DNA of 64,000 nt from Terriglobales bacterium (GCA_051006995.1 JBPCSQ010000022.1:8047-72046); one strand, 5' to 3'; shown: positions 10,611 through 24,093, counted from the first letter of the stretch. Notes: a model not told the origin generated them from the letters alone. Numbers and translations are program-made.

Positions 10611-10655
10611 TTTTCGTACAGGAGAGTTCGGGCGGATCTTCCCCCAGAGCCCCAG

Positions 10656-12614
10656 ATGGCATTTGGCAAGATTGACGACGTGCTGAGCCGCGTGGCCGCC
10701 GCAGTGGATGCGGCGCGCAAGTACCTGTTCTCCATCCAGCATCCGGACGGGTATTGGTGCGGCGAACTCGAGGCCGACTCGACCCTCGAGTCCGACTACA
10801 TCATGATGCACACGCTGCTGGGGACCGGCGATCCCGCCAAGTTCGGCAAGGCAGCGCAGTGGATCCTGGACCACCAAAACCAGGACGGCGGATGGCCGAT
10901 TTTTGAGGACGGGCCATCCGACGTCAGCGCCTCCATCAAGGCCTACTTCGCGCTGAAGCTTGCCGGGTTCAATGCCGACCACGCCGCCTTGGTGAAGGCG
11001 CGCCAGGCCATCAGCGATCTGGGCGGGCCGACGAAGGCGAATACCTACACCAAGATTTATCTCTGTTTTTTCGGCCAGTACGACTGGTTCGCGGTGCCGG
11101 CAATTCCACCGGAGATCGTGCTGTTTCCCAACTGGTTCTGGTTCAATATCTACGAGATTTCATCGTGGTCGCGAGCCATCTTTATTCCGCTGGCCATCGT
11201 GTACGCCAAGAAGCCGTACAAGAAAATTCCGGTGGAGATGGGGATTGAGGAACTGTTCCCCGCCGGGCGCGAACACACCAACCTACACCTGCACTGGGAT
11301 GCAAAGATTGTCAGCTGGCGCAACTTCTTCCTGTTCCTGGATCGGGCAACGCACTGGTTCGAGCGCTTCCACATCCGGCCGCTGCGCTCGATCGCGCTAG
11401 CCGCCGCCGAGGAGTGGATGCTGGAGCGCTGCGAGATGAGCGATGGCGTGGGCGCCATTTACCCCGCCATGATGAACTCCATCATCGCGCTGCGCTGCCT
11501 CGGGTATTCGGTGGACGATCCGCAATTCATCCGCGCCATGGATGAGTTCGAGGCGCTGGGCATCGAGGAAGAGAAGACGTTCCGCATGCAGCCGTGCAAG
11601 TCGCCGGTATGGGACACGGGATACGCGCTGTATGTGCTGGGGGAAAGCGGGGTCAGCGGCAAAGACCCCCGGATGATTGCCGCCGCAGAATGGGTGCTGA
11701 AGAAGCAGGTGACGCACAAGGGTGACTGGTCGGTGAAAAATCCGAAGGCGCAGCCGGCGGGCTGGTACTTCGAGTTTAACAACGAGTTTTATCCCGACGT
11801 GGACGACACGGCGCAAGTCTGCCTGGGTCTGAATGAAGTGGACCACCCCAACGAGCGCTACCAGCGCGAATCGGTGCAGCGCGCCATGGATTGGGTGTTC
11901 TCCATGCAGTGCCGCAACGGGGGCTGGGCGTCGTTCGACAAGAACAACGAGAAGATGGTGTTCCAGTACATCCCGTTCGCTGATCACAACGCCATGCTTG
12001 ATCCGCCGACGGTAGACATCACCGGGCGCGTACTGGAAATGCTGGCGGAACACGGCTACACCCAACAGGACAAGCGCGTGCAGAAGGCCATCCAGTTCAT
12101 CCTCGAGGAGCAGGAACCCGACGGCGCCTGGTTTGGACGTTGGGGATGTAACTACATTTATGGAACGATGCTGTGCCTGCGCGGGCTGGAAGCGATCGGT
12201 GTGGACCACCACGAGCCGTACATTCAGCAAGCGGCGGAGTGGTTGCGCATGGTGCAGAACCCGGACGGCGGCTGGGGCGAGAGCGTGTGGTCGTATCACG
12301 ATGCCAGGGCGCGGGGAGTAGGCCCGAGCACGGCGTCACAAACGGCCTGGGCAGTGCTAGGTTTACTGGCCGCCGGCGACACCCGCAGCGACTCGGTTCA
12401 TCGTGGCGTGGCGTATTTGCTGAAGACGCAGCGCAGCAATGGATCGTGGTGGGAAAAGTGGTACACGGGAACGGGCTTCCCGAAGGTTTTCTACCTCAAG
12501 TACCACATGTACGCCGAATACTTCCCGCTGCTGGCGCTGGCGACATACGCCAAAGTGATGAATGGCGAATCGGAGCAACGATCGGTGCTCGATCAAAATC
12601 TGGGAGAGGCATAG
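10656..12614 (+). CDS. shc: Squalene-hopene cyclase
   Basis: 652 aa with repeated QW motifs (QNQDGGW, QCRNGGW, QEPDGAW, QNPDGGW, QRSNGSW) and the DVDDTA catalytic motif. Confidence 0.95.
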   Translation: MAFGKIDDVLSRVAAAVDAARKYLFSIQHPDGYWCGELEADSTLESDYIMMHTLLGTGDPAKFGKAAQWILDHQNQDGGWPIFEDGPSDVSASIKAYFALKLAGFNADHAALVKARQAISDLGGPTKANTYTKIYLCFFGQYDWFAVPAIPPEIVLFPNWFWFNIYEISSWSRAIFIPLAIVYAKKPYKKIPVEMGIEELFPAGREHTNLHLHWDAKIVSWRNFFLFLDRATHWFERFHIRPLRSIALAAAEEWMLERCEMSDGVGAIYPAMMNSIIALRCLGYSVDDPQFIRAMDEFEALGIEEEKTFRMQPCKSPVWDTGYALYVLGESGVSGKDPRMIAAAEWVLKKQVTHKGDWSVKNPKAQPAGWYFEFNNEFYPDVDDTAQVCLGLNEVDHPNERYQRESVQRAMDWVFSMQCRNGGWASFDKNNEKMVFQYIPFADHNAMLDPPTVDITGRVLEMLAEHGYTQQDKRVQKAIQFILEEQEPDGAWFGRWGCNYIYGTMLCLRGLEAIGVDHHEPYIQQAAEWLRMVQNPDGGWGESVWSYHDARARGVGPSTASQTAWAVLGLLAAGDTRSDSVHRGVAYLLKTQRSNGSWWEKWYTGTGFPKVFYLKYHMYAEYFPLLALATYAKVMNGESEQRSVLDQNLGEA

Positions 12615-12623
12615 GCTGAACTG

Positions 12624-13742
12624 ATGGCAGTACCGGTTTCACAGATGTGGACGGTTGCGACCTACGTCCTGAAGCAGAAGCTGAAGGGACGCAAGCGGTA
12701 TCCGCTGGTGCTGATGCTGGAACCTCTGTTCCGCTGCAATCTGGCGTGCGCCGGATGCGGCAAGATCCAGTACCCGGGCCACGTGCTGAAGATGCAGCTC
12801 ACGCCGGAAGAATGCTTCAAAGCGGTAGAAGAGTGCGGCACGCCCACGGTCGCCATTCCGGGTGGGGAGCCGCTGTTACATCCGCAGATCGCTGAAATCG
12901 CGGCCGGGCTGGTGGCGCGCAAGAGGTACATCTATTTGTGCACCAACGCGCTGCTGCTCAAAGAAAAGCTCCATCTGTTTCAGCCCAGCAAGTACCTGAC
13001 GTTCTCCGTCCATCTCGATGGCGAAAAGGAGAATCACGATTTCTCGGTGTGCCTGGAGGGCGGATACGAGAAGGCGGTGGAGGGGATTCGCGAGGCTCTG
13101 CGGCGTGGCTTCCGGGTGACGACGAATACGACGCTGTTCGACGGCGCCGACCCCAAGAGTGTGCGCGCGTTTTTCGATCAGATGATGGAGCTGGGCATCG
13201 AGGGCATGATGCTCTCGCCGGGATATTCCTACGACAAGGCGCCCGACCAGAGCCACTTTCTAGGCCGCTCACGCACGCGGCGGCTTTTTCGCGCCATATT
13301 GTCAAATCGCAAAGCAAACTGGCGATTCAACATGTCGCCGCTGTTTCTTGAGTTCCTGATGGGCAAGCGCACCTACCCATGCACCGCGTGGGGCATGCCG
13401 ACATTCAATGTGTTCGGCTGGCAGAAGCCCTGCTACCTCCTGCAGGACGGCTACGCCGATTCGTTTGCCGAGCTCCTGCAAGGCACGGAGTGGGAGCGCT
13501 ACGGAACCGAGTCCGGCAATCCCAAGTGCGCCAATTGCATGGTGCACAGCGGCTACGAGGCCTCGGCGGTGAACGACACCTTCAGCTCGCTACGCGGCAT
13601 CTGGGCGACAGCGCGCGCCAGCTTCAGCCGTTATCGCGATCCCGAGGCGGCGGCACTGCTGAATGAGCCGGTGCGCCCGGTACATGCTTTCAATCCCCTG
13701 GTGCAGATCGAGTCGCAGCCGGCGCAGGAGAGCCGCGCGTGA
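12624..13742 (+). CDS. hpnH: Adenosylhopane synthase, radical SAM protein HpnH
   Basis: It has a radical SAM CNLACAGC cluster motif and a C-terminal SPASM-like Cys pattern (CTAWG...CANCMVHSG). It lies 9 nt after shc, the classical hpnH position. Confidence 0.88.
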   Translation: MAVPVSQMWTVATYVLKQKLKGRKRYPLVLMLEPLFRCNLACAGCGKIQYPGHVLKMQLTPEECFKAVEECGTPTVAIPGGEPLLHPQIAEIAAGLVARKRYIYLCTNALLLKEKLHLFQPSKYLTFSVHLDGEKENHDFSVCLEGGYEKAVEGIREALRRGFRVTTNTTLFDGADPKSVRAFFDQMMELGIEGMMLSPGYSYDKAPDQSHFLGRSRTRRLFRAILSNRKANWRFNMSPLFLEFLMGKRTYPCTAWGMPTFNVFGWQKPCYLLQDGYADSFAELLQGTEWERYGTESGNPKCANCMVHSGYEASAVNDTFSSLRGIWATARASFSRYRDPEAAALLNEPVRPVHAFNPLVQIESQPAQESRA

Positions 13743-14173
13743 CCGGCAAGGAATGCGGCAACCAGCCGCGCGTCCAGGATCCCGACTCGCTGGAAGTGGT
13801 GGAAGGCCGCCGGCGCGAGCAACTGGAAGGATGGGTGCCGAAGCTGGCGAATGAGGAAGAACTGCGCCAGGCGCTGGAGCAGGCCTTCGACTACCGCGGC
13901 GATGTGCTCATCACTTGCAAGGACGGCAGCAAGATTGAGGGATACATTTTCGATCGCCGTAGCGGGCGAACGCTGGCTGATTCCGTGGTCCGCCTGATGC
14001 CCAAGGACACACGGCAGAAGATTTCGATTAAGTATTCGGACATCGCGGCCTTGGCATTCACCGGCCGCGACATGGCCGCCGGTAACAGCTGGGAATCGTG
14101 GGTACGGCAGTATTGGGAAAAGAAGACAGCCGGCGAACAGGACATCTCTCTGCAACCGGAACGCCTGGAATAA
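13739..14173 (+). CDS. Hypothetical soluble protein embedded in hopanoid operon
   Basis: 144 aa. The GTG start overlaps the hpnH stop (GTGA) and the ORF ends 7 nt before hpnA. I recognise no TM segment and no domain. The start codon is uncertain. Confidence 0.45.
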   Translation: MTGKECGNQPRVQDPDSLEVVEGRRREQLEGWVPKLANEEELRQALEQAFDYRGDVLITCKDGSKIEGYIFDRRSGRTLADSVVRLMPKDTRQKISIKYSDIAALAFTGRDMAAGNSWESWVRQYWEKKTAGEQDISLQPERLE

Positions 14174-14180
14174 CGGCGGG

Positions 14181-15179
14181 ATGAAAGCCTTCGTCACAGG
14201 AGCGACCGGCTTCGTCGGAAGCCATGTTGCGCGCGAACTGGCGGCGCAAGGGGCGGAGCTGCGGTTGCTGGTGAGGCGCACCAGTCCCACGCGAAATATC
14301 GAAAATCTCAATGCCGATCGCGTTTTTGGGGATCTGGCCGATACGGCGGGCCTGCGCCCGGCCATGAGCGGCTGCGATGCGGTATTTCATGTCGCGGCCG
14401 ACTACCGCTTGTGGACACGCGACGCCGCCGACGTGACTTCAATGTATCGCTGTAACGTGGAGGGAACGCGCGGACTGATTGAGACCGCGCGGCAAGCGGG
14501 AGTGAAGCGCATCGTTTACTGCTCGACGGTTGCCACCATGGGATTCACCGGCAACGGCCGGCCCGCGGATGAAACTTCTCCCGTGCGAGCAGAGGAGATG
14601 ATCGGGCATTACAAGCGGTCGAAGTTCGTGGCCGAGCAGGTCGCGCTGGAGGCCGGGCGGTCCGGAGGCGACGTCATCGTCGTTAATCCGACGGCGCCGG
14701 TGGGAGAGCAAGACGTCAAGCCCACGCCGACGGGACGAATCATTCTCGATTTTGTGAAGCGCCAATTTCCCGCGTACGTAGAGACGGGACTCAACATCGT
14801 GGACGTGCGGGAGGTCGCGCGCGGACACGTGGCGGCGCTGGAAAAGGGAAAGCCGGGAGAGCGCTACATCCTGGGCGGCGAGAACCTGACGTTGAAGCAG
14901 ATCCTCGACAAGCTAGCCGCGATTACCGGCATTGCGGCGCCGCGGATCAAGCTGCCATATGTGGTTGCGCTGGCCGCTAGTGTGGGCGATACGGTCGTGA
15001 CAGGGAAGATTCTGCGACGGGAGCCGCGCGTCAGCCTCGACGCAGTGCGTATCGGACGCAAAAAAATGTGGGTGACCTCGGCGAAGGCGGAGCGGGAACT
15101 GGGCTGGCGAATCGTGCCGGTGGATGATGCCTTGCGCAGGGCGGTGGAATGGTTTCGGGCAAACGGCTATGCCGGCTGA
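14181..15179 (+). CDS. hpnA: Hopanoid-associated NAD-dependent sugar epimerase/dehydratase family protein HpnA
   Basis: It has a VTGATGFVGSHV Rossmann motif, a YKRSK catalytic motif, and the expected position in the hpn cluster. Confidence 0.8.
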   Translation: MKAFVTGATGFVGSHVARELAAQGAELRLLVRRTSPTRNIENLNADRVFGDLADTAGLRPAMSGCDAVFHVAADYRLWTRDAADVTSMYRCNVEGTRGLIETARQAGVKRIVYCSTVATMGFTGNGRPADETSPVRAEEMIGHYKRSKFVAEQVALEAGRSGGDVIVVNPTAPVGEQDVKPTPTGRIILDFVKRQFPAYVETGLNIVDVREVARGHVAALEKGKPGERYILGGENLTLKQILDKLAAITGIAAPRIKLPYVVALAASVGDTVVTGKILRREPRVSLDAVRIGRKKMWVTSAKAERELGWRIVPVDDALRRAVEWFRANGYAG

Positions 15180-15180
15180 A

Positions 15181-15870
15181 ATGGCCATCATCGCGGCTTT
15201 GCGGCGTGAAATTTGGCCGCTGGTAAAGACCTGGAAACAGCGAGCGGGGCCAGGTCACATCGAGATTTTCGAGAAGGACAGGTCGGTGGCCATCTGCGGC
15301 GGGGTGGGCGCAGCAGCGGCCCGGGCGGCAGCGGAGTTGGCGTTTGGCATGGCGCGGCCCTGCGTAGTAATCTCTGCGGGCTTTGCCGGGGCACTGGAGC
15401 CCGGCCTGGCGGCCGGAGACGTATTTACGCCGGCGGTGGTAATCGACGCTCGATCGGGACGCAAGTACCCGGCTGGGAATGGTCGAGGCACATTGGTAAG
15501 CGCCTCCGCAGTGAGCAATACGGCCGCCAAGCGCGAATTGGCGACCAAGTTCGGCGCCCAGGCGGTGGACATGGAAGCGGCTGCCGTAGCTGAGGTTGCG
15601 GAAGCACACGGCGTGGCATTCGCTGCGGTAAAGGGGATTTCCGATGCTGCCGGTTTTGTCCTGCCGCCGGTAGCGCGGTTTGTGGATGAATCAGGACGAT
15701 TCCATACCGGGCGCTTCGTGGTGCGTCATTTAATGCGGCCATGGACTTGGCCCAACTTGGCGCGGTTGGCGGTAAATAGCGGGCGTGCATCTCGGGAACT
15801 TTGTCGTACCCTGCTGCATCTGATTGAGAAACAAGCACGAGAAGTCCCAGATGCTGTAAGTCGAACTTGA
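15181..15870 (+). CDS. hpnG: Hopanoid-associated phosphorylase/nucleosidase HpnG (PNP/UDP family)
   Basis: The features GFAGAL, AVDMEAAAVA and KGISD fit the nucleoside phosphorylase fold. The ATG at 15181 is 1 nt after the hpnA stop. An alternative ATG at 15169 overlaps hpnA. Confidence 0.78.
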   Translation: MAIIAALRREIWPLVKTWKQRAGPGHIEIFEKDRSVAICGGVGAAAARAAAELAFGMARPCVVISAGFAGALEPGLAAGDVFTPAVVIDARSGRKYPAGNGRGTLVSASAVSNTAAKRELATKFGAQAVDMEAAAVAEVAEAHGVAFAAVKGISDAAGFVLPPVARFVDESGRFHTGRFVVRHLMRPWTWPNLARLAVNSGRASRELCRTLLHLIEKQAREVPDAVSRT

Positions 15871-16985
15871 TGGCAGTGGCCACACAAACCGGTGTTGCCC
15901 GCGATGCAGTGGCTATTCCCGCCACTATGCGGGCGGCGGTCTATCGGGGCAAGAACGATGTGCGGGTGGAAGAGGTTCCGGTACCGAAGATTGAAGCCGG
16001 CGAACTGCTGATTCAAGTCCACACCTGCGGCATCTGCGGCACCGACCTAAAAAAGATTTCAACTGGATCGCACTCCGCCCCTCGTATTTTCGGCCATGAG
16101 ACGGCAGGGACAGTGGCTGCTGTCGGCCGGGATGTGAAAGGTTATGCGCTTGGGGACCGGGTCAGCGTCTTCCACCACATTCCTTGCGGCGACTGCTACT
16201 ACTGCCGGCATAAAGTCTTTGCCCAATGCCCCGTTTACAAGCAGGTTGGCTGTACGGCGGGATTTGAGCCGAGTGGAGGCGGATTTTCGGAGTACGTCCG
16301 TGTAATGGACTGGATTGTTGCCCGTGGCGGCGTAGTCAAGCTGCCCGATGACGTTTCTTTTGAGCAGGCCTCTTTCATTGAACCGATCAACACCTGCATG
16401 AAGGGAATTGAAACTCTGGGCCTGAAGAGCGGCGAAACGGTGCTAGTGATTGGACAAGGTCCTATCGGTATCCTATTGGCGGCATTGGCACAAAAGTCGG
16501 ATGCACAGGTAATAACTTCCGATTTATTTCCTCAGAGGCTTACAATATCCGATGGCTTCGGCCTTGGCAGGTCCATTGACGCGTCCAGGACGGATACAGT
16601 CCAGACGGTGCGGCAGTGGACCGATGGACGAGGCGCCGACGCCGTGGTCCTGGCGGTAGCCGGGACGGCCCTGATTCGGACTGCCATGGACGCAGCCCGG
16701 CCCGGGGGCAGGGTCCTCCTGTTTGCGCAGACGGTACGAGGAGAGGCCGTCATTGACCCTGCTGCGATCTGCGTGGATGAAAAGACTCTGTTGGGCTCCT
16801 ACAGCGCCTCCATCGACCTTCAGGCCCAGGCCGTAAGTTTTGTCTGCCGCCGGGAAATGGAGCTGGAGCGGCTTATCTCGCACCGTTTCGCCCTGGCGGA
16901 GGCGGTGGAAGCATTGAACTTGGCCGCGAATCCACGACCGGAGTCAATGAAGGTCGTGATTCAGCCGGCGTTGCGAACGGCATGA
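15870..16985 (+). CDS. Zn-dependent medium-chain dehydrogenase (polyol/threonine dehydrogenase type), copy 1
   Basis: Catalytic Zn ligands are CGICGTD and GHE. The structural Zn motif is CGDCYYCRHKVFAQC and the Rossmann motif is VIGQGPIG. The ATG at 15870 overlaps the hpnG stop (ATGA). The alternative start MRAAVY is at 15927. Confidence 0.8.
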   Translation: MAVATQTGVARDAVAIPATMRAAVYRGKNDVRVEEVPVPKIEAGELLIQVHTCGICGTDLKKISTGSHSAPRIFGHETAGTVAAVGRDVKGYALGDRVSVFHHIPCGDCYYCRHKVFAQCPVYKQVGCTAGFEPSGGGFSEYVRVMDWIVARGGVVKLPDDVSFEQASFIEPINTCMKGIETLGLKSGETVLVIGQGPIGILLAALAQKSDAQVITSDLFPQRLTISDGFGLGRSIDASRTDTVQTVRQWTDGRGADAVVLAVAGTALIRTAMDAARPGGRVLLFAQTVRGEAVIDPAAICVDEKTLLGSYSASIDLQAQAVSFVCRREMELERLISHRFALAEAVEALNLAANPRPESMKVVIQPALRTA

Positions 16986-17016
16986 GGCTTCGCGGCCGGC
17001 GAAAGGAACTTGGATA

Positions 17017-18066
17017 GTGAACAGACAGATGACAGCAGCCGTCCTTTATGGCAAAGAGGACGTAAAAATTGAAAAGGTGCCGATCCCGCGTGTCGGACAC
17101 GGCGAAGTTCTGATCAAGGTTCAGGTCGCCCTGACCTGCGGTACCGACTTGAAGGTTTATCAGCGTGGTTATCACGCGCGAATGATCGTGCCCCCGGCCC
17201 TGTTCGGGCACGAACTGGCCGGTACCATCGAAGAGGTCGGACCCGGCGTTCGCTTCTTCCGCACCGGCATGCGCGTGGTGGCGCTGAACTCGGCGCCCTG
17301 CCAAATGTGCTTTTATTGCTCCAAGCACCAGGAGAACCTCTGCGAGGACTTGCTGTTCAACAACGGCGCCTACGCCGAGTACATTAAGATTCCGCGGCGG
17401 ATCGTGGAAAGCAACATGCTCGCCGTGCCGGCGAACGTGAGCTACGAGGAAGCGGCGATGGTGGAACCGCTGGCCTGCGTGCTGCGCGGCCTGCATGAAA
17501 CCAACGTCGAGATCGGCGACACGGTGGTGGTAATCGGCGGAGGCCCGATCGGGCTGATGTTCGTGCAGGTGGCAAAGTTGACCGGCTGCAACGTAATCTC
17601 GGTGGCCAAGCGGGATTCCCAGGTGGCGGCCGCCAAGAAGCTTGGCGCTGACGAGATCGTGCAGATTACCCAGGTCCAGGATGCGGTGGACGCGGTACGG
17701 GCGCTGACGCCCGACCGGCGCGGCGCCGACGTCGTGGTCGAGGCCGTAGGTCGTCCCGAGGCGTGGGAGTGGGCCATTGACATGGTTCGCAAGGGCGGCA
17801 CGGTGAACTTTTTCGGCGGCTGCGCGAGTGGTACCACGGTCGCGCTGGACACGAACCGCCTGCACTATTCCGAAATTACGCTCAAGGCGACGTTCCATCA
17901 CACGCCAGAGACGGTACGCAAGGCGTTTGCGTTGATCGCGGAGCGCAAGATTCGCGGCGCCGACTACATCACCGGGGAAGCACCCCTGTCGCGGCTGCAG
18001 CACGTTCTGCGGCACATGCTGAACCGGAATGGCGACATCAAGACCGCCATCATTCCGGGACACTGA
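17017..18066 (+). CDS. Zn-dependent medium-chain dehydrogenase (polyol/threonine dehydrogenase type), copy 2
   Basis: It has LTCGTDLK, GHE, the structural Zn motif CQMCFYCSKHQENLC, and the VIGGGPIG Rossmann motif. The start is GTG 17017 or ATG 17029. Confidence 0.8.
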   Translation: MNRQMTAAVLYGKEDVKIEKVPIPRVGHGEVLIKVQVALTCGTDLKVYQRGYHARMIVPPALFGHELAGTIEEVGPGVRFFRTGMRVVALNSAPCQMCFYCSKHQENLCEDLLFNNGAYAEYIKIPRRIVESNMLAVPANVSYEEAAMVEPLACVLRGLHETNVEIGDTVVVIGGGPIGLMFVQVAKLTGCNVISVAKRDSQVAAAKKLGADEIVQITQVQDAVDAVRALTPDRRGADVVVEAVGRPEAWEWAIDMVRKGGTVNFFGGCASGTTVALDTNRLHYSEITLKATFHHTPETVRKAFALIAERKIRGADYITGEAPLSRLQHVLRHMLNRNGDIKTAIIPGH

Positions 18067-18070
18067 AATA

Positions 18071-18104
18071 CAGGCTCCAGGCTTCAGGCGCAAGGCTCCA
18101 GGCT
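18071..18104 (+). repeat. Intergenic word repeat, copy 2
   Basis: caggctccaggcttcaggcgcaaggctccaggct, immediately after the stop of the second dehydrogenase gene. Confidence 0.6.
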
Positions 18105-18135
18105 GTTAACCGGGACCTTGCGCCTTCTGTTTTGT
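18087..18135 (+). terminator. Putative terminator built from the word-repeat element
   Basis: GGCGCAAGG (18087-18095) pairs with CCTTGCGCC (18116-18124), followed by TTCTGTTTTGT. The 20-nt loop is large, so this is tentative. Confidence 0.4.
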
Positions 18136-18163: not shown

Positions 18164-19090
18164 TTGACCGCTCCCCCCAACTCGGTGCCGTTCGCGGGAC
18201 TGCCGCCGGAGTACGCCATTCCGGCCCAGGCGCCGTCGCTAACAGAGGCACGCGCCTACTGCGAGCGCCTGGCGCGCAGCCATTACGAAAACTTCTCGGT
18301 GGCGACGTGGTTCCTGCCGAAGCGGCTGCGGCCGCACTTTTCCAGTGTGTACGCCTACTGCCGGATTTCCGACGATCTCGGTGATGAAGTCGGCGATCCG
18401 AAGGAATCGTTAAGGTTGCTGGATGAATGGGAAGTCGAGCTCAACGCCTGCTATGACGGGGCGCCCCGGCATCCGGTTTTCGTCGCGTTGCGCGAGACCG
18501 TACGCGCGTGCCAGATTCCGAAGCAGCCGTTCGCCGATCTGCTGAAGGCCTTCCGGCAGGATCAGGCGGCGGGACGGTACCCGACGTTTGAGGACGTTCT
18601 GGCTTACTGCCGATACTCCGCCAACCCGGTGGGGCGGTTGGTGCTGTACGTCTGCGGATATGGTGATGAGGAATGCCAACAGCTTTCCGACTTCACCTGC
18701 ACGGCGCTGCAACTGGCGAACTTCTGGCAGGACGTCTGGCCGGACTTCGGGAAGGGGCGGATCTACATTCCGCTGGACGACCTGCGAAGCCATGGGGTGA
18801 CGGAAGAGGACATAGCGCAACGCCGCTCGACGCAGCAATTTCGGCAGCTGATGAAGTTCGAGGTCGAGCGTGCGCGCGAGTGGTTCGAACGCGGTCTGCC
18901 GCTGGCCAAGAAGGTGGACCCGGAGCTGGCGATTGATATCGAGCTGTTCAGCCGCGGCGGACGGGAGATTCTGAACGCAATCGAGCGGCAGGACTACGAC
19001 GTGCTAACGAGGCGTCCGGTGATTTCCAAGTCACGGAAGCTGATGCTGGTGGCAAGAGCGGCGCTGGGAAAGGTCGGCAGACTGAAATGA
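18164..19090 (+). CDS. hpnC: Squalene synthase-like protein HpnC (hydroxysqualene synthase)
   Basis: It belongs to the trans-isoprenyl diphosphate synthase head-to-head family (YENFSVATWFLP, YAYCRISDDLGDE, QLANFWQDV). It has a TTG start and its stop overlaps the hpnD ATG. Confidence 0.82.
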   Translation: MTAPPNSVPFAGLPPEYAIPAQAPSLTEARAYCERLARSHYENFSVATWFLPKRLRPHFSSVYAYCRISDDLGDEVGDPKESLRLLDEWEVELNACYDGAPRHPVFVALRETVRACQIPKQPFADLLKAFRQDQAAGRYPTFEDVLAYCRYSANPVGRLVLYVCGYGDEECQQLSDFTCTALQLANFWQDVWPDFGKGRIYIPLDDLRSHGVTEEDIAQRRSTQQFRQLMKFEVERAREWFERGLPLAKKVDPELAIDIELFSRGGREILNAIERQDYDVLTRRPVISKSRKLMLVARAALGKVGRLK

Positions 19091-20031
19091 GCGCTGTGAT
19101 TCAGGCCGACCCCGCACGTCCGGCAAACGTCGCCCCGCTGCAACTCCGCACCGCCTATGGTGTCTGCCGGCACATTACGCGCTCGGCCGCGCGAAACTTC
19201 TACTATGCATTCCTGGTGCTGCCCCGGCGCAAGCGCGACGCGCTGAGCGCGGTATACGCGTTCATGCGCCACGCCGACGACCTCAGCGACGATCCCCAGC
19301 TCCCACCCGCGGAGAAACGTGCCAAGCTGGCGGCGTGGCTGGGAGCGCTGCAGGCCGTTACCGGCGGAGAGCCGACCGACGATCCGGTGCTCATGGCCGT
19401 CGCCGACAGCCAGCGGCGTTTCAAGATTCCTCTGGAGCTGCTGGAGAAGCTGGTCTACGGCACGGCCATGGATGTCCAGCTTCCTGACGGGCGGCAACCC
19501 GCAGCCGACAACCCCATCGTCTTGTATGGCACGTTCGACGATCTTTACGGCTACTGCTACCACGTTGCGTCAGTAGTTGGCCTGGCCTGCATTCGCGTCT
19601 TCGGTTACCGCGACTCCGCGGCGGAAAAGCTGGCCGAGCGCTGCGGCGTGGCCTTCCAACTCACCAACATCATCCGCGACCTGAAGGAAGATGCCGCCAT
19701 GGGCCGCGTCTACCTGCCACAGGAAGACCTCGACAAATTTCACATCACGCCCACCATGTTTGCCAACGTTGCGGACCCCTGGGCGTTTCGCCCGCTGCTG
19801 GAGGTGGAAGCGGAACGGGCACGCGAGCTCTACCGTTCCGGACGGGAGTTGATCGCGTACGTGGACGAGGACAGCCGCGCAGCATTGTGGACCCTGGTAG
19901 AAATTTACAGCCGGCTGCTGGAGAAAATCGCGACCACCAACTATGACGTTTTCACACGGCGTGTACGCCTGACCACTAGCGAGAAGCTGCGTATCCTTGC
20001 GAAAGGCCTTTGGCGGCGGATCCGCGAATGA
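19087..20031 (+). CDS. hpnD: Presqualene diphosphate synthase HpnD
   Basis: It is a phytoene/squalene synthase family member (RNFYYAF, YAFMRHADDLSDD, QLTNIIRDLKED). It has ATGA overlaps with both hpnC and hpnE. Confidence 0.85.
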   Translation: MSAVIQADPARPANVAPLQLRTAYGVCRHITRSAARNFYYAFLVLPRRKRDALSAVYAFMRHADDLSDDPQLPPAEKRAKLAAWLGALQAVTGGEPTDDPVLMAVADSQRRFKIPLELLEKLVYGTAMDVQLPDGRQPAADNPIVLYGTFDDLYGYCYHVASVVGLACIRVFGYRDSAAEKLAERCGVAFQLTNIIRDLKEDAAMGRVYLPQEDLDKFHITPTMFANVADPWAFRPLLEVEAERARELYRSGRELIAYVDEDSRAALWTLVEIYSRLLEKIATTNYDVFTRRVRLTTSEKLRILAKGLWRRIRE

Positions 20032-21449
20032 GCGCCGCCGCACGTCCTACGGTTGCCGTGGTGGGCGGCGGGCTGGCGGGTCTGGCGGCAGGTTGCGCGC
20101 TGGCCGATGCCGGGTTTCAGATATCGCTGCTGGAGCGCCGCCCTTATCTTGGCGGGCGCGCCTCGTCCTACCAGCATCCCGGCACCGGGGAAGTGGTGGA
20201 CAACTGCCAGCACGTACTGCTGGGCTGCTGCACCAACCTGATCGATTTGTATCGGCGCATCGGCGCCGAAGACAAGATTCGCTGGTACCGCCGGCTGACA
20301 TTCATCGAGCCCGGCGGGCGCCGCTCGGTCATTGAGCCGGGAATCCTGCCGGCCCCGCTGCACAGCGCCGGGTCTTTCATAGCCGCAGCATTCTTGTCGT
20401 TGCCGGACAAGCTGGCGATCGCGCGTGGGATGCTGTCGCTCCTAGGCGGCCTGCCCGCCGACCTTGACCCGCCCTTCCTGCACTGGTTGCGAGCGCATGG
20501 CCAAACGCAGGCGGCCATTGACCGCTTCTGGAAGGTCGTGCTGGTGAGTGCGCTGAATGAAGACCTGGAGCGGATGTCGTCACGCTATGCGGCGCAGGTC
20601 TTTCGCGAATCATTCCTGAAATCGGCGGAGGCGGGAAGGCTGGGAATTCCCGCTGTGCCGCTGTCGGAGCTCTACGGGATCGCAGGTGACCACATCCGCA
20701 CGCACGGCGGCGAGGTGCAGCTGCGGGCCACAGTGGAATCTGTTCGGGTGCGCAAAGAGGACGCGACGTTGTGCATCGGCGGAAACGAGAAGGTCTTTGA
20801 TTACGTGGTGCTGGCCGTGCCGTTCCAGGGACTGGCATCCATGCTGCCGCCTGACCACGAAGCTGCGCCCCTGCGCTCGGCCCTGGAGCAGTTCGAAACA
20901 TCCCCGATTACCGGAATTCATTTGTGGTTCGACCGCCAGGTTACCGACCTGGATCATGCCGTGCTGCTGGACCGCACCATCCAGTGGATGTTCCACAAAA
21001 GCAGTTTCCAGAGTGCTGATGGGGAGCGAGGTACCGGAAACCAGAAACCAGAAGCCAGGAACTCGTATATCGAGCTGGTGGTCAGCTCCTCAAAAAACCT
21101 TGTGGATATGCCGAAGCAGGAGATCGTCGATCTCGCAATGGGCGAGTTGCAGGAATTTCTGCCCAAGGTGGCAAACGCGCAGTTGCTGAAGTCCACGGTG
21201 ATCAAGGAAGTGAACGCGACATACGCGCCGCTGCCGGGCACGGATGCATACCGAGCGGCGAGCCGGTCTCCTTGGCCGCGCGTGTTCCTGGCCGGCGATT
21301 GGACTGCGACGGGGTGGCCCGCCACCATGGAGGGCGCCGTCCGCAGCGGATATCTTGCAGCCGAGGCGCTTTCCCAAACCGCCGGTACTGCTGCGAAATT
21401 TCTGGTTCCCGATCTAGCGGCACGCGGACTGATGCGCCTGCTCGGCTAA
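20028..21449 (+). CDS. hpnE: Hydroxysqualene dehydroxylase HpnE (FAD-dependent amine-oxidase fold)
   Basis: It has the VAVVGGGLAGLAAG dinucleotide motif and a C-terminal FLAGDWT...ATMEGAVRSG motif. The ATG at 20028 overlaps the hpnD stop. Confidence 0.85.
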   Translation: MSAAARPTVAVVGGGLAGLAAGCALADAGFQISLLERRPYLGGRASSYQHPGTGEVVDNCQHVLLGCCTNLIDLYRRIGAEDKIRWYRRLTFIEPGGRRSVIEPGILPAPLHSAGSFIAAAFLSLPDKLAIARGMLSLLGGLPADLDPPFLHWLRAHGQTQAAIDRFWKVVLVSALNEDLERMSSRYAAQVFRESFLKSAEAGRLGIPAVPLSELYGIAGDHIRTHGGEVQLRATVESVRVRKEDATLCIGGNEKVFDYVVLAVPFQGLASMLPPDHEAAPLRSALEQFETSPITGIHLWFDRQVTDLDHAVLLDRTIQWMFHKSSFQSADGERGTGNQKPEARNSYIELVVSSSKNLVDMPKQEIVDLAMGELQEFLPKVANAQLLKSTVIKEVNATYAPLPGTDAYRAASRSPWPRVFLAGDWTATGWPATMEGAVRSGYLAAEALSQTAGTAAKFLVPDLAARGLMRLLG

Positions 21450-21868: not shown

Positions 21869-22290
21869 GCCGTATCTCCTGCTGGCGGGGCTTGCGAATG
21901 GACGCCGCGCGCGTCCGGTGTCTTGGCGGGACCGGCGGTGACAAATCCCACCCCTACGGCAATGAGCACGATTCCCGCCCAACGCGTCGGGGAGATTTCC
22001 TCATGGAGGAAGAACTTGGCCATCAGCGCCATCAGGATGTAACCGACGGCCGTGGCCGGCAGGACGTAGGTGAGATCGGCGAACGAGAGCGCCGTCAGGT
22101 AGCTGATAAAAAATCCGAGCAGCAGCACAATACCGACCGCCACCCACGGGGTGAAGATGGCGGCAATGGCGCCGGTCCAGTGGCTGAGGGAGAGGGCGCC
22201 CACTTGCTTCATACCGCGCGACAGCGCGACGTCCCCGCAGGCGCCGAACACGACGACGCCCGCCAGGATGGCGATCTTACGGAAGGTCAC
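21865..22290 (-). CDS. Half-size EamA/DMT-type 4-TM membrane protein (first of a pair)
   Basis: 141 aa with four hydrophobic segments and EamA-like sequence (GDVALSRGMKQVG...FLHEEISPTRWAGIVLIAVGV). It starts 9 nt after the radical SAM gene stop. Confidence 0.6.
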   Translation of the reverse strand: MTFRKIAILAGVVVFGACGDVALSRGMKQVGALSLSHWTGAIAAIFTPWVAVGIVLLLGFFISYLTALSFADLTYVLPATAVGYILMALMAKFFLHEEISPTRWAGIVLIAVGVGFVTAGPAKTPDARGVHSQAPPAGDTA

Positions 22291-22299
22291 AGGCTTGTC

Positions 22300-23820
22300 T
22301 CAGGCGTTGATTGGTTCGACCGAGGGCTCCGTTTCCGACTGGGGTTCACCACCCGGCAGGGGAGGCGGAGGCGCAGTGGCCTGCTGCGCGCGCTGTTCTT
22401 TGACGTAGCGGTTGCGGCTGGCGCGCAGCTTCAAGAAGCCCTTGGCCTCTTTGTAAAGGCGTTTGCGTTCCTCGGAGTTGAACACGGCCTTGCGCACGAT
22501 GCGAAACACGGCCCTTGGGCGGAAGTAGTACTCGTCGTAGAAGCGGTGTACCGCCTCCATGATGACGTCGGCCGGGAGTCCGGGGTACTCGATGTGCGCC
22601 AATTGGTGCCCGCCGGCGTCCACCATCGCTTTGTTCGCCAGATAGCCGTTGCGCACCACGAAGTCATACATCTCGGTGCCAGGGTAGGCATGTGCTACCG
22701 AAACCTGAATGGTTTCAACATCCAGTTCCTTGGCGAAATCAATGGTGCGGCGGATGGATTCGCGGGTTTCGCCAGGCAGGCCGAGGATGAAGTCGCCATG
22801 AATCACCAGGCCGAGCTTTTTGCAATCCTTGGTGAACTGGCGGGCGCGCTCGAGGGTGGCGCCTTTCTTGATGTTTTTGAGAATCTGCGCGTCGCCGGAT
22901 TCGTAGCCCACAATGAGCAGCCGGCAGCCGGACTCGCGCATGGCCTTCAGCGTCTCGTAGTCGGTAGTGACGCGCGAAGTGCAGGACCAGGTCAGCTTGA
23001 GCGGCTTCAGCTTCTCGCAAAGCTCGATGGTGCGTGCTTTTTGGATGTTGAATGTATCGTCGTCGAAGAAGAATTCCTTCACGTCCGGCCAGTACTGCTT
23101 GGCTTTGGCCATCTCGCTGGCAACTCGATCGGTCGAGCGCTTTCGCCACGGATGTCCGCTCAGCGTCTGCGGCCACAGGCAGAAGGTGCACTGCGCCGGA
23201 CAGCCGCGCGTGCTGTACAAGGCCACGAATGGATGCTTCAGAAACGGGACGTTGTAGCGGCGGACATCGAGATCGCGCTTGTAAATATCGGTGACATCCG
23301 GCAGAGCATCGAGGTCGCTGACCTGCGGTCCCTCCGGATTGTGAACTACCTTACCGTTCTGGCGATAAGAGACGCCGGGGATCTCCTGCAGCGGCTTGCC
23401 ATTGGCAAAGTCCACCACGGCGTAATCGAACTCGCGCCGGACAATGAAATCAATTTCAGGACATTCGGCGAGCGACTTCTCCGGCAGCACGGTGACATGC
23501 GGTCCGACGAAGGCAATCTTGATGTTGGGATTCGCGCTCTTAATGGCGGCTGCCAGGCGCATGTCGCCGGGAAAACCCGGTGTGCTGGTAAACAGCACCA
23601 GGAAATCGTACTCGCGAGCGATCTCAATGGTCTGGTCGCCGTCAATGTGGTGCGGAGGGGCGTCCAACAGGCGCGAACCCTCCAGCATTCCTGCCGGATA
23701 GGCGAGCCAGACCGGGTACCAGTAGGATTCGATTTCGCGGGTCGCCGGCCAGCGAGAGCTGGCGCCGCCATCAAAGTTCTCGAACGAAGGGGGGTTCAGG
23801 AACAGCGTTCTCAGCGGCAT
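22300..23820 (-). CDS. hpnJ: B12-binding-domain radical SAM protein, HpnJ-like
   Basis: The N-terminus LFLNPPSFENFDGGASSRW...REIESYWYPVWLAYPAG matches my recollection of HpnJ family N-termini. The radical SAM motif is CPAQCTFC. The C-terminal tail is proline-rich. Confidence 0.65.
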   Translation of the reverse strand: MPLRTLFLNPPSFENFDGGASSRWPATREIESYWYPVWLAYPAGMLEGSRLLDAPPHHIDGDQTIEIAREYDFLVLFTSTPGFPGDMRLAAAIKSANPNIKIAFVGPHVTVLPEKSLAECPEIDFIVRREFDYAVVDFANGKPLQEIPGVSYRQNGKVVHNPEGPQVSDLDALPDVTDIYKRDLDVRRYNVPFLKHPFVALYSTRGCPAQCTFCLWPQTLSGHPWRKRSTDRVASEMAKAKQYWPDVKEFFFDDDTFNIQKARTIELCEKLKPLKLTWSCTSRVTTDYETLKAMRESGCRLLIVGYESGDAQILKNIKKGATLERARQFTKDCKKLGLVIHGDFILGLPGETRESIRRTIDFAKELDVETIQVSVAHAYPGTEMYDFVVRNGYLANKAMVDAGGHQLAHIEYPGLPADVIMEAVHRFYDEYYFRPRAVFRIVRKAVFNSEERKRLYKEAKGFLKLRASRNRYVKEQRAQQATAPPPPLPGGEPQSETEPSVEPINA

Positions 23821-24093
23821 GCGATTGATTCGGTTATCCTACCATCCCTCTCTACAATTTTCGGCTGGGCCGGCCAACAAGCAACAAAAAATTGCCCGTG
23901 CGCTTGCGCTGCTGGTACCAACTCAATCTAGGTTAACAGGAAGCCGTTCCCCACCGAAGGCAATCAGGTTCAATGGTAACTTAGATGAGCTGAAAGGCAA
24001 AAGAATTCAGTAGTTTGCGCAGGAAAGTCATCGCGCGAAGCCTTCCGCCGCTCGCTTTTCCGAGAGGCTGGAACCAAAGGCCCGCAGCCGGTT

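What the first reader, a model, noticed from the sequence alone, without database searches (positions are those of the whole stretch)
15870..18066. Two polyol-type Zn dehydrogenases inside the hopanoid side-chain operon: candidates for the missing ribosylhopane reductase
**Seen in the sequence.**
- Two paralogous MDR dehydrogenases both carry catalytic (C...GHE) and structural (CxxCxxCx7C) zinc motifs and a GxGPIG Rossmann fold.
- They lie directly after hpnG. The first ATG overlaps the hpnG stop.
- A terminator-like hairpin at 18087-18135 separates this unit from hpnCDE.
- This places them in one apparent transcription unit: ispH-shc-hpnH-orf-hpnA-hpnG-adh-adh.

**Established knowledge.** HpnH makes adenosylhopane and HpnG removes adenine to give ribosylhopane. 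To my knowledge, the NAD(P)H-dependent enzyme that reduces ribosylhopane to bacteriohopanetetrol has not been assigned to a gene.

**Inference.** Sugar/polyol-type MDR enzymes in exactly this position are plausible candidates for that step, or for a further oxidation or reduction of the polyol side chain.
Basis: partly seen in the sequence, partly recalled or inferred. Interest (0 to 1): 0.78.

Follow-up and report, generated by a model that had tools for sequence, protein, structure and literature searches.

The report
Paired zinc dehydrogenases in hopanoid cluster
Two adjacent zinc-dependent sugar-alcohol-type dehydrogenase genes really do sit inside the hopanoid lipid gene cluster of this soil acidobacterium and nearly all its relatives; they are reasonable but unproven candidates for a missing step in hopanoid side-chain synthesis, and the gene association was already published in 2017.

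Summary
Window 15870-16985 (MDR1, 371 aa) and 17017-18066 (MDR2, 349 aa) encode two polyol-dehydrogenase-type Zn-MDRs. They lie between hpnG and hpnC in a Terriglobales hopanoid supercluster: ispH-shc-hpnH-ug3-hpnA-hpnG-MDR1-MDR2-hpnC-hpnD-hpnE, with hpnJ convergent.

These genes are 'ug1' and 'ug2' of Sinninghe Damste et al. 2017, listed there as function not established.

What this analysis adds:
- **Obligate pair.** MDR2 follows MDR1 in 132/132 loci, with a 4-nt overlap in 79.
- **Complementary cofactor signatures.** MDR1 is NAD-type (invariant Asp); MDR2 is NADP-type ([V/M/A]-K-R).
- **Tightest linkage is to hpnCDE, not hpnG.** hpnCDE follows in 117/117 loci (114 within 1 kb); hpnG precedes in 109/130.
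- **A deeply divergent acidobacterial lineage** keeps the pair between hpnA and a squalene synthase plus shc.
- **Orthologous pairs elsewhere lack hpn neighbours.** This holds in Omnitrophota and in one unidentified GC-rich lineage.
- **Seven hpn clusters from Proteobacteria and Streptomyces** contain no such gene.
- **MDR2's nearest outside relatives** sit in sugar or polyol catabolic clusters.

The pair most likely carries out redox chemistry on the ribose-derived polyol end of C35 hopanoids. The specific 'ribosylhopane reductase' reading remains possible (about 0.2-0.25). It is lineage-restricted at best and nothing here tests it directly.

The parts
15870..16985 (+). MDR1 (= ug1 of Damste 2017): 371-aa Zn-dependent MDR of the polyol-dehydrogenase type, with an NAD(H)-type signature (invariant T-S-D at the end of beta2)
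   Evidence: The start overlaps the hpnG stop by 1 nt. The hallmark motifs FHHIPC, LFAQT and GSYSAS are conserved out to Omnitrophota orthologues.
17017..18066 (+). MDR2 (= ug2): 349-aa Zn-dependent MDR with an NADP(H)-type signature ([V/M/A]-K-R replaces the Asp). It is the slowest-evolving protein of the cluster.
   Evidence: The AF2 model has pLDDT 92.5. Foldseek gives only generic Zn-MDR neighbours at 25-30% identity. Identity to orthologues is 61-94%, median 84%.
18086..18134 (+). Imperfect GC-rich hairpin followed by a U-rich tail between MDR2 and hpnC (terminator-like)
   Evidence: fold; z -2.6. The consensus scan did not find it. A comparable element is present in only 6/72 related loci.
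15124..15870 (+). hpnG-like nucleosidase/phosphorylase (PNP_UDP_1), a divergent member
   Evidence: TIGR03468 105 bits, below the cut-off of 187. Only 37-52% identical among Terriglobales.
14181..15179 (+). hpnA (extended SDR, 'hopanoid-associated sugar epimerase')
   Evidence: TIGR03466 485 bits, above cut-off. It lies directly upstream of the MDR pair in the divergent lineage L141/L182.
13739..14173 (+). ug3: 144-aa conserved hypothetical protein. Its GTG start overlaps the hpnH stop by 4 nt.
   Evidence: It was found in related loci only next to hpnH, or at a contig edge where hpnH is cut off.
12624..13742 (+). hpnH (adenosylhopane synthase, radical SAM)
   Evidence: TIGR03470 533 bits
10656..12614 (+). 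shc (squalene-hopene cyclase)
   Evidence: TIGR01507 743 bits
9633..10610 (+). ispH
18164..19090 (+). hpnC (hydroxysqualene synthase)
   Evidence: TIGR03464 356 bits. It follows MDR2 in 117/117 evaluable loci, 114 of them within 1 kb.
19087..20031 (+). hpnD (presqualene diphosphate synthase)
   Evidence: TIGR03465 247 bits, slightly below the cut-off of 279
20010..21449 (+). hpnE (hydroxysqualene dehydroxylase)
   Evidence: TIGR03467 490 bits
22300..23820 (-). hpnJ (B12-binding radical SAM, cyclitol-ether formation), convergent with hpnE
   Evidence: TIGR03471 780 bits, above the cut-off of 578

Best explanation
MDR1 and MDR2 are a co-inherited, usually translationally coupled pair of polyol-dehydrogenase-type zinc MDR enzymes. 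In Acidobacteriota they have become a fixed part of the hopanoid gene cluster.

**Shown.**
- Both keep every catalytic-zinc, structural-zinc and Rossmann residue.
- MDR1 carries the acidic residue that specifies NAD(H). MDR2 carries the small-plus-basic residues that specify NADP(H).
- They are always adjacent.
- They stay with hpn genes through several independent rearrangements.

**Inferred.**
- The pair works as a two-step redox couple on a vicinal-polyol substrate.
- In Acidobacteriota that substrate is most likely the ribose-derived C5 end of extended (C35) hopanoids, meaning ribosylhopane or bacteriohopanetetrol, or a sugar or cyclitol head group attached to it.
- MDR2 would be the NADPH-dependent reducing partner. 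It could reduce the open-chain carbonyl of ribosylhopane, or a keto intermediate, to the polyol.
- MDR1 would be the NAD+-dependent oxidising partner, converting a secondary hydroxyl to a ketone.
- Together they would give reduction plus re-oxidation (a hopanoid 'polyol pathway'), or inversion of one carbinol centre.

Whether the net reaction includes the missing ribosylhopane to BHT step cannot be decided from sequence.
For: - **Domains, motifs and conservation:**
- **Cofactor signatures:** TSD is found in all 120 MDR1 orthologues. [V/M/A]KR is found in all 120 MDR2 orthologues. It aligns with the Ala-Arg of the NADP-dependent ketose reductase 1E3J.
- **Pairing:** MDR2 is immediately downstream of MDR1 in 132/132 evaluable loci, and the stop and start overlap by 4 nt in 79 of them.
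- **hpn linkage in Terriglobales:** hpnG lies upstream in 109/130 loci. hpnC-D-E follows MDR2 in 117/117, within 1 kb in 114.
- **Linkage survives rearrangement:**
  - inversion of the ispH-shc-hpnA-hpnG block (L078, L115, L123 and others);
  - the split arrangement of Terriglobus roseus, MDR2-hpnCDE with a 4-nt overlap;
  - L100, hpnA-hpnG-MDR1-MDR2-hpnCDE at about 65% identity;
  - a deeply divergent Acidobacteriota lineage with a different order, ispH-hpnA-MDR1-MDR2-SQS-shc.
- **Nearest non-acidobacterial relatives of MDR2** (46-52% identity). Three of the four contexts examined are sugar or polyol catabolic clusters, which points to a polyol-type substrate:
  - DeoC aldolase and a sugar ABC transporter;
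  - FGGY kinases, Dak and RpiB;
  - DeoR, an FGGY kinase and a class II aldolase in Rhodococcus.
- **Pathway gap:** besides hpnA and ug3, these are the only unassigned enzymes in a cluster that otherwise encodes every known step. SD1 Acidobacteria make tetrafunctionalised BHPs (PMC5462960).
Against: - Orthologous pairs (50-56% identity, same hallmark motifs, same NAD/NADP split, 4-nt overlap) occur in Omnitrophota MAGs, followed by a Peripla_BP_2 gene, and in a GC-rich unidentified lineage next to proline dehydrogenase. Neither has an hpn gene within 10 kb. The ancestral function need not involve hopanoids.
- No homologue lies within 30-41 kb of hpnH in seven proteobacterial or actinobacterial clusters.
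- MDR2 is more conserved than ispH or hpnH (median 84%), whereas the bona fide side-chain enzyme hpnG is the least conserved. That pattern is unusual for a lipid-tailoring enzyme.
- The most stable neighbour is hpnCDE (squalene synthesis), not hpnG.
- There is no biochemical or genetic evidence of any kind.
- The intact BHP structures of SD1 Acidobacteria are unknown, because they were analysed only after Rohmer degradation (PMC5462960).
Confidence: 0.45

Rival explanations
1. One reading: one of the two enzymes is the missing NAD(P)H-dependent ribosylhopane reductase that makes bacteriohopanetetrol in Acidobacteriota. MDR2 is the more likely, given its NADP-type signature. This is a special case of the best explanation.
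For: - The gene for this step has not been established (PMC12583986).
- The pair follows hpnG in most Terriglobales, and the MDR1 start overlaps the hpnG stop in the window.
- MDR2 has an NADP-type motif. From my own recollection of Bodlenner et al. 2015, which I did not read here, the Methylobacterium cell-free reduction depended on NADPH.
- Relatives act on sugars and polyols.
Against: - Homologues are absent from the hpn clusters of BHT-producing Proteobacteria and Streptomyces.
- C. thermophilum makes BHT without ug2 (PMC5462960).
- The pair occurs without an adjacent hpnG in several lineages, and without any hpn gene in Omnitrophota.
- The characterised relatives (sorbitol, xylitol, threonine, galactitol-1-P, idonate and butanediol dehydrogenases) interconvert secondary alcohols and ketones. 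They do not reduce an aldose C1.
- One reduction does not explain an obligate NAD-type plus NADP-type pair.
Confidence: 0.22
2. The pair is a general sugar or polyol redox module that is not specific for hopanoids, for example an epimerisation couple. It could also be an NADH/NADPH-exchanging substrate cycle that supplies reducing power. It merely shares regulation with isoprenoid and hopanoid genes in Acidobacteriota.
For: - The same pair occurs in non-hpn contexts in Omnitrophota and in one other lineage.
- MDR2 is very strongly conserved, like a housekeeping gene.
- The closest outside relatives are catabolic.
- The complementary NAD and NADP specificities are what a transhydrogenating cycle or an epimerase couple needs.
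Against: - Adjacency to hpn genes has been kept through inversions, splits and a completely different gene order across deeply divergent Acidobacteriota. Chance would not do this.
- No sugar transporter, kinase or aldolase accompanies the pair in any acidobacterial locus.
- Some Omnitrophota are reported to carry shc (PMC12324291), so the non-hpn loci do not prove hopanoid independence.
Confidence: 0.22
3. The pair, or at least MDR2/ug2, serves squalene synthesis together with HpnC, HpnD and HpnE, as Damste et al. tentatively grouped it in their 'cluster A'.
For: - hpnC-D-E follows MDR2 in 117/117 loci.
- MDR2 overlaps hpnC by 4 nt in Terriglobus roseus and in L101.
- Stand-alone MDR1-MDR2-hpnCDE units exist with unrelated upstream genes.
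- In L182 the pair abuts a single HpnD-like synthase and shc.
Against: - The FPP to PSPP to hydroxysqualene to squalene route has no step with an obvious need for a zinc alcohol dehydrogenase.
- HpnCDE from other bacteria suffice in E. coli, as summarised in PMC5462960.
- hpnCDE clusters of other phyla lack the MDRs.
- The family's relatives use hydrophilic polyols.
Confidence: 0.08

Closest known systems
ug1 and ug2 of the acidobacterial hopanoid gene clusters (Sinninghe Damste et al. 2017, Front Microbiol 8:968, PMC5462960)
   Same: These are the same genes.
- ug1 is a 'Zn-dependent alcohol dehydrogenase ca. 370 aa' following hpnA-hpnG (their cluster C).
- ug2 is a 'Zn-binding alcohol dehydrogenase ca. 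350 aa' preceding hpnC-hpnD-hpnE (their cluster A).
- ug3 is the ~150-aa ORF after hpnH.
- All three are listed as 'function not established'.
   Different: That paper:
- treated ug1 and ug2 as members of separate clusters;
- proposed HpnA, not the MDRs, for the ribosylhopane to BHT step;
- did not note the obligate pairing, the translational coupling, the complementary cofactor signatures or the non-hpn orthologues outside the phylum.
NADP(H)-dependent ketose reductase / sorbitol dehydrogenase branch of Zn-MDRs (PDB 1E3J, 1PL6) and L-threonine 3-dehydrogenases (2D8A, 2DFV)
   Same: - Same fold: TM 0.87-0.89 for the MDR2 model.
- Same Cys-His-Glu(+Glu) catalytic zinc site and four-Cys structural zinc lobe.
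- MDR2 shares the Ala/basic NADP determinant of 1E3J.
   Different: - Only 25-30% identity.
- Both proteins score far below every curated NCBIfam cut-off: tdh 161-176 bits against 458, IolM 154 against 450, galactitol-1-P dehydrogenase 112-137 against 550.
- The substrate is unknown.
- The characterised enzymes act singly, not as an NAD/NADP pair.
NAD+/NADPH dehydrogenase couples that invert a carbinol centre or shuttle aldose-polyol-ketose. Examples: B. subtilis IolG/IolX with IolW for inositol epimerisation, and the aldose reductase plus sorbitol dehydrogenase polyol pathway. This comparison rests on my own knowledge, not on a tool result.
   Same: Two dehydrogenases of opposite cofactor preference encoded together. 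This is the logic I infer for MDR1 and MDR2.
   Different: - Those systems use GFO/IDH/MocA or AKR enzymes rather than two MDRs.
- They act on soluble substrates.
- No such couple is known for a hopanoid.

Membership tests
Zinc-dependent medium-chain dehydrogenase/reductase, polyol-dehydrogenase branch | GroES-like ADH_N domain plus Rossmann ADH_zinc_N domain | tested here: met
   PF08240 and PF00107 both score above their gathering cut-offs for both proteins.
Zinc-dependent medium-chain dehydrogenase/reductase, polyol-dehydrogenase branch | Catalytic zinc ligands Cys (CGTD), His-Glu (GHE) and the 'EP' Glu; structural zinc CxxCxxCx7C; GxGxxG | tested here: met
   Read from the translations. 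Invariant in 19 MDR1 and 23 MDR2 orthologues.
L-threonine 3-dehydrogenase (TIGR00692 / NF003808) | Score at or above the curated equivalog cut-off | tested here: not met
   161 and 176 bits against a cut-off of 458
scyllo-inosose 3-dehydrogenase IolM (NF041097) and galactitol-1-phosphate 5-dehydrogenase (NF007642) | Score at or above the curated cut-off | tested here: not met
   154 bits against 450, and 112-137 bits against 550
Sorbitol / L-iditol 2-dehydrogenase (the name JGI gives these proteins) | Close sequence relationship to characterised SDH, and activity on sorbitol or iditol | tested here: inconclusive
   25-28% identity to 1PL6, 3QE3 and 1E3J. Activity cannot be tested here, and the name is an automatic label.
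Hopanoid (hpn) biosynthesis gene set | Conserved gene-neighbourhood with shc/hpn genes across independent lineages | tested here: met
   - At least 160 Terriglobales loci.
- Terriglobus roseus.
- L100 (taxon unknown).
- The divergent Acidobacteriota lineage L141/L182 with a different gene order.

Hopanoid (hpn) biosynthesis gene set | Association with hpn genes outside Acidobacteriota | tested here: not met
   - There is none in seven hpn clusters of Alpha- and Betaproteobacteria and Streptomyces.
- The Omnitrophota and L183 pairs have no hpn neighbours.
- Whole-genome co-occurrence could not be tested.
Hopanoid (hpn) biosynthesis gene set | Mutant or enzymatic evidence of a hopanoid substrate | not testable with these tools
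   None exists in the literature searched.
Ribosylhopane reductase (activity defined biochemically by Bodlenner et al. 2015; no gene known) | NADPH-dependent reduction of ribosylhopane to BHT | not testable with these tools
   Only the cofactor signature of MDR2 is consistent with it.
Ribosylhopane reductase (activity defined biochemically by Bodlenner et al. 2015; no gene known) | Present wherever BHT is made via HpnH/HpnG | tested here: not met
   - Absent from the sampled proteobacterial and actinobacterial hpn clusters.
- The best homologue on the B. cenocepacia replicon that carries hpnH is 32% identical and about 1.3 Mb away.
- ug2 is absent from the BHT producer C. thermophilum (PMC5462960).

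The most novel reading that the evidence does not exclude
The pair is a hopanoid 'polyol pathway'.
- MDR2 is the long-sought NADPH-dependent ribosylhopane reductase of Acidobacteriota.
- MDR1 then oxidises a secondary hydroxyl of BHT (for example C-34) with NAD+.
- Together they yield keto-BHT or, after re-reduction, a BHT stereoisomer.

This would identify genes both for the missing BHT-forming step and for the origin of BHT stereoisomers used as sedimentary biomarkers.
Probability: 0.1. Interest if true: 0.8.

Novelty: new member of a known kind. Interest (0 to 1): 0.45.

Why it matters
**If the pair acts on the hopanoid side chain.**
- The conversion of ribosylhopane to bacteriohopanetetrol is the one core step of extended-hopanoid biosynthesis with no assigned gene.
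- The pair would give two concrete, easily cloned candidates for that step.
- It could also point to a so-far unseen modification of acidobacterial hopanoids, whose intact structures have never been determined.

**If it does not.** The finding is an uncharacterised but ordinary pair of sugar-alcohol-type dehydrogenases whose clustering was already reported.

Tried and rejected
1. **Reaching beyond Terriglobales with the collection scans.**
   - I got outside the order only by stepping through the 50%-cluster representatives and a third homologue search seeded with the distant member P0244.
2. **Nearby nucleoside phosphorylase in Omnitrophota.** I tested whether the PNP_UDP_1 gene near the Omnitrophota pair is an HpnG. 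It is a housekeeping purine nucleoside phosphorylase, PRK08202 373 bits. Rejected.
3. **Structure.**
   - The MDR1 AlphaFold model from a shallow alignment was poor (pLDDT 65), so I did not use it.
   - The MDR2 model was good (pLDDT 92.5). Foldseek returned only generic Zn-MDRs at 25-30% identity, which says nothing about the substrate.
4. **'orf679'.** I first treated the 679-aa ORF at 21892-23931 (+) as a conserved gene. It is the antisense shadow of hpnJ on the minus strand.
5. **HpnA as the reductase** (the proposal of Damste et al.). It cannot be tested here. The same paper cites evidence that hpnA is dispensable for BHT in B. cenocepacia.
6. **Literature searches.**
   - A later functional assignment of ug1/ug2 and intact BHP structures of SD1 Acidobacteria turned up nothing.
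   - A search for a role of a dehydrogenase in the HpnCDE route also found nothing; of its 25 hits I read only one paper.
7. **Whole-genome questions left open.** I could not test whether the pair-bearing Omnitrophota MAGs or the L182 lineage encode shc, hpnH or hpnG.


Full report
**What is in the window**

The window comes from a Terriglobales (Acidobacteriota) MAG; the MDR1 protein is 100% identical to an NCBI 'Terriglobales bacterium' entry. On the + strand, with gaps of -4 to 45 nt, lie:

| Gene | Coordinates | Note |
|---|---|---|
| ispH | 9633-10610 | |
| shc | 10656-12614 | |
| hpnH | 12624-13742 | |
| ug3 | 13739-14173 | 144-aa ORF with no family match |
| hpnA | 14181-15179 | |
| hpnG-like | 15124-15870 | divergent nucleosidase |
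| MDR1 | 15870-16985 | |
| MDR2 | 17017-18066 | |
| hpnC | 18164-19090 | |
| hpnD | 19087-20031 | |
| hpnE | 20010-21449 | |

hpnJ is convergent on the minus strand at 22300-23820. No further hopanoid genes were found downstream.

**Checking the observation**

- Both proteins have ADH_N plus ADH_zinc_N domains.
- Both have the catalytic CGTD...GHE motif, the CxxCxxCx7C structural-zinc lobe, the 'EP' glutamate of the polyol-dehydrogenase branch, and GxGPIG. These residues are invariant in orthologues.
- The MDR1 ATG shares one base with the hpnG stop. Its short N-terminal extension is conserved, so that start is real.
- MDR2 starts at a GTG that is conserved in almost all related loci.
- The two proteins are 31% identical.
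- The hairpin after MDR2 folds as described: stem 18086-18125 plus a U-rich tail, z -2.6.

Neither protein reaches the curated cut-off of any named NCBIfam enzyme. The best matches are threonine dehydrogenase, IolM and galactitol-1-P dehydrogenase, each at a third or less of the required score. The best solved structures are 25-35% identical generic Zn-MDRs.

**Already in the literature**

Sinninghe Damste et al. 2017 (PMC5462960) described three recurring acidobacterial clusters:
- ug2-hpnC-hpnD-hpnE;
- ispH-shc-hpnH-ug3;
- hpnA-hpnG-ug1.

Their Table S1 lists ug1 as a Zn-dependent ADH of about 370 aa, ug2 as a Zn-binding ADH of about 350 aa, and ug3 as a hypothetical protein of about 150 aa. 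All are 'function not established'. The window's MDR1, MDR2 and orf144 are these genes.

That paper suggested HpnA for ribosylhopane to BHT. It cited evidence that hpnA is dispensable in Burkholderia. It noted that ug2 is absent from Chloracidobacterium thermophilum, which makes BHT and its cyclitol ether. A November 2025 survey still states that the enzyme for ribosylhopane to BHT has not been established (PMC12583986). I found no later functional work on ug1 or ug2.

**Synteny within Acidobacteriota**

I fetched 80 species-level genome loci and 80 metagenome loci and mapped the window's proteins onto them.
- MDR2 lies immediately downstream of MDR1 in 132/132 evaluable loci.
- The MDR1 stop and the MDR2 GTG overlap by 4 nt in 79 of them, and most of the rest are within a few bases. 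The window's 31-nt gap is atypical.
- hpnC-hpnD-hpnE follows MDR2 in 117/117 evaluable loci, within 1 kb in 114.
- hpnG lies directly upstream of MDR1 in 109/130.
- In the other 21, the ispH-shc-hpnA-hpnG block is inverted, hpnA directly precedes the pair (L141), or unrelated genes lie upstream. L147, for example, has phosphoketolase and acetate kinase there.
- In Terriglobus roseus, MDR2 (61% identical) overlaps hpnC by 4 nt and has no MDR1 or hpnG upstream.

A strong hairpin plus T-run follows MDR2 in only 6/72 loci.

Conservation is uneven. Median identity to the window is 84% for MDR2, 83% for hpnH, 81% for ispH, 72% for shc, 71% for MDR1 and 45% for hpnG.

Two further lineages keep the linkage:
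- L100 (taxon unknown) has hpnA-hpnG-MDR1-MDR2-hpnCDE at about 65% identity.
- L141/L182, labelled only 'Acidobacteriota bacterium', has ispH-hpnA-MDR1-MDR2-(HpnD-like synthase)-shc between housekeeping genes. MDR1 is 53% and shc 45% identical to the window. No hpnG or hpnH lies within 10 kb.

**Outside Acidobacteriota**

*Hopanoid clusters without the MDRs.* tblastn of HpnH against plasmids and chromids gave hopanoid clusters from Mycetohabitans, Roseomonas, Streptomyces, Azospirillum, B. cenocepacia, C. metallidurans and Methylobacterium. None has an MDR1 or MDR2 homologue within 30-41 kb. The only hit is an unrelated 29%-identical MDR beyond two IS elements in Roseomonas.

*Nearest relatives of MDR1.* It has no plasmid-borne relative above 36% identity.

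*Nearest relatives of MDR2 (46-52% identity).* Their contexts are:
- a Ktedonobacterales-type stand-alone gene;
- a gene beside a DeoC aldolase and a sugar ABC transporter;
- one of three MDRs among FGGY kinases, Dak, RpiB and a sugar transporter;
- a Rhodococcus plasmid gene with DeoR, an FGGY kinase and a class II aldolase.

*Orthologous pairs with no hpn neighbours.*
- Omnitrophota MAGs carry MDR1-like (50-52%, with the FHHIPC, LFAQT and GSYSAS motifs) and MDR2-like (52-56%) genes, overlapping by 4 nt and followed by a Peripla_BP_2 gene. They lie among ileS, lgt, lspA and proC. No hpn gene lies within 10 kb.
- The nearby PNP_UDP_1 gene is a housekeeping purine nucleoside phosphorylase, not HpnG.
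- A GC-rich unidentified lineage has QueF-proline dehydrogenase-MDR1-MDR2.
- A preprint reports low-level SHC presence in Omnitrophota (PMC12324291), so I cannot say whether these particular genomes make hopanoids.

**Cofactor signatures**

- All 120 MDR1 orthologues have T-S-D at the end of the second Rossmann strand.
- All 120 MDR2 orthologues have [V/M/A]-K-R there. This aligns with the Ala-Arg of the NADP(H)-dependent ketose reductase 1E3J.
- The Omnitrophota pair shows the same split: Asp in the MDR1-like protein and G-K-G in the MDR2-like protein.
- By the established rule for Rossmann folds, MDR1 should prefer NAD(H) and MDR2 NADP(H). This is inference, not measurement.

**Interpretation**

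Retention of the pair next to hpn genes through inversions, splits and a wholly different gene order argues that in Acidobacteriota it functions with the hopanoid pathway. Three things point to a two-step redox couple on a vicinal polyol:
- the polyol-type family;
- the sugar-catabolic outside relatives;
- the obligate NAD-type/NADP-type pairing.

The only such moiety in the pathway is the ribose-derived end of C35 hopanoids or an attached sugar or cyclitol. This is my best explanation (confidence about 0.45).

The specific claim that one enzyme is the ribosylhopane reductase is a subset of it. I put it at about 0.22, because it:
- would be lineage-restricted;
- does not explain the need for two enzymes;
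- is not the family's usual chemistry;
- is weakened by the stronger linkage to hpnCDE and by the non-hpn orthologues.

The other rivals are a general polyol or cofactor-balancing module merely co-regulated with isoprenoid genes (about 0.22) and an accessory role in squalene synthesis (about 0.08).

The unusually high conservation of MDR2 compared with true side-chain enzymes is unexplained. It mildly favours a less peripheral role.

**Verdict**

The gene association is already published. The functional hypothesis is reasonable and readily testable, but only circumstantially supported and partly weakened by the wider comparison. What this analysis adds:
- the strict pairing and coupling;
- the complementary cofactor signatures;
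- the primacy of the hpnCDE linkage;
- the divergent acidobacterial arrangement;
- the non-hpn orthologous pairs outside the phylum.

Noticed in passing
window 13739-14173 (+): ug3 is a 144-aa soluble ORF with no Pfam or NCBIfam match, and its GTG start overlaps the hpnH stop by 4 nt. In related loci it appears only next to hpnH, or at a contig edge where hpnH is cut off. In 4 of every 5 loci where shc and hpnA were both mapped, hpnH and ug3 are missing together from between them. hpnH-ug3 therefore looks like a two-gene module of unknown significance.
   Followed up: partly
window 21892-23931 (+) versus 22300-23820 (-): A 679-codon open frame on the + strand is an antisense artefact. The real gene is hpnJ on the minus strand (TIGR03471 780 bits). 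The artefact even produced 'conserved' tblastn hits in 49 related loci and one in Methylobacterium.
   Followed up: yes
window 15124-15870 and related loci: The acidobacterial hpnG is by far the fastest-evolving gene of the cluster (37-52% identity within the order). It scores below the TIGR03468 cut-off, and its ORF overlaps hpnA by 56 nt, so its true start is probably further downstream. MDR2 next door is the slowest-evolving gene (median 84%), yet drops to 61% in Terriglobus, where it is uncoupled from MDR1.
   Followed up: partly
L078, L115, L123, L129, L140, L142, L144, L160 (also L122, L127, L153): There is a recurrent inversion of the ispH-shc-hpnA-hpnG block relative to MDR1-MDR2-hpnCDE. 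It puts MDR1 at the head of a divergently oriented unit.
   Followed up: partly
L087 (Mycetohabitans), L088 (Roseomonas), L089 (Streptomyces): In two proteobacterial replicons the hopanoid cluster lies next to a phosphonate-lipid set: aepX, aepY, an aminotransferase, phosphocholine cytidylyltransferase and a lysyl-PG-synthase-domain protein. In Streptomyces it lies next to a cytidylyltransferase, an Fe-ADH and a CDP-alcohol phosphatidyltransferase. This is a repeated pairing of hopanoid genes with unusual polar-lipid head-group genes.
   Followed up: no
L096, L098, L099 (Omnitrophota): The MDR1-like/MDR2-like pair is followed in all three contigs by a Peripla_BP_2 substrate-binding protein gene, with weak matches to heme, B12 and F420 binders. 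It abuts or overlaps MDR2 in each. This is a conserved three-gene unit of unknown function.
   Followed up: partly
L003 (about 10001-12200): MDR1, MDR2 and hpnC each gave split or lengthened tblastn matches in this genome locus: the MDR1 match spans 1654 nt, and MDR2 and hpnC each give two hits. This suggests frameshifts or assembly errors in that long-read MAG.
   Followed up: no
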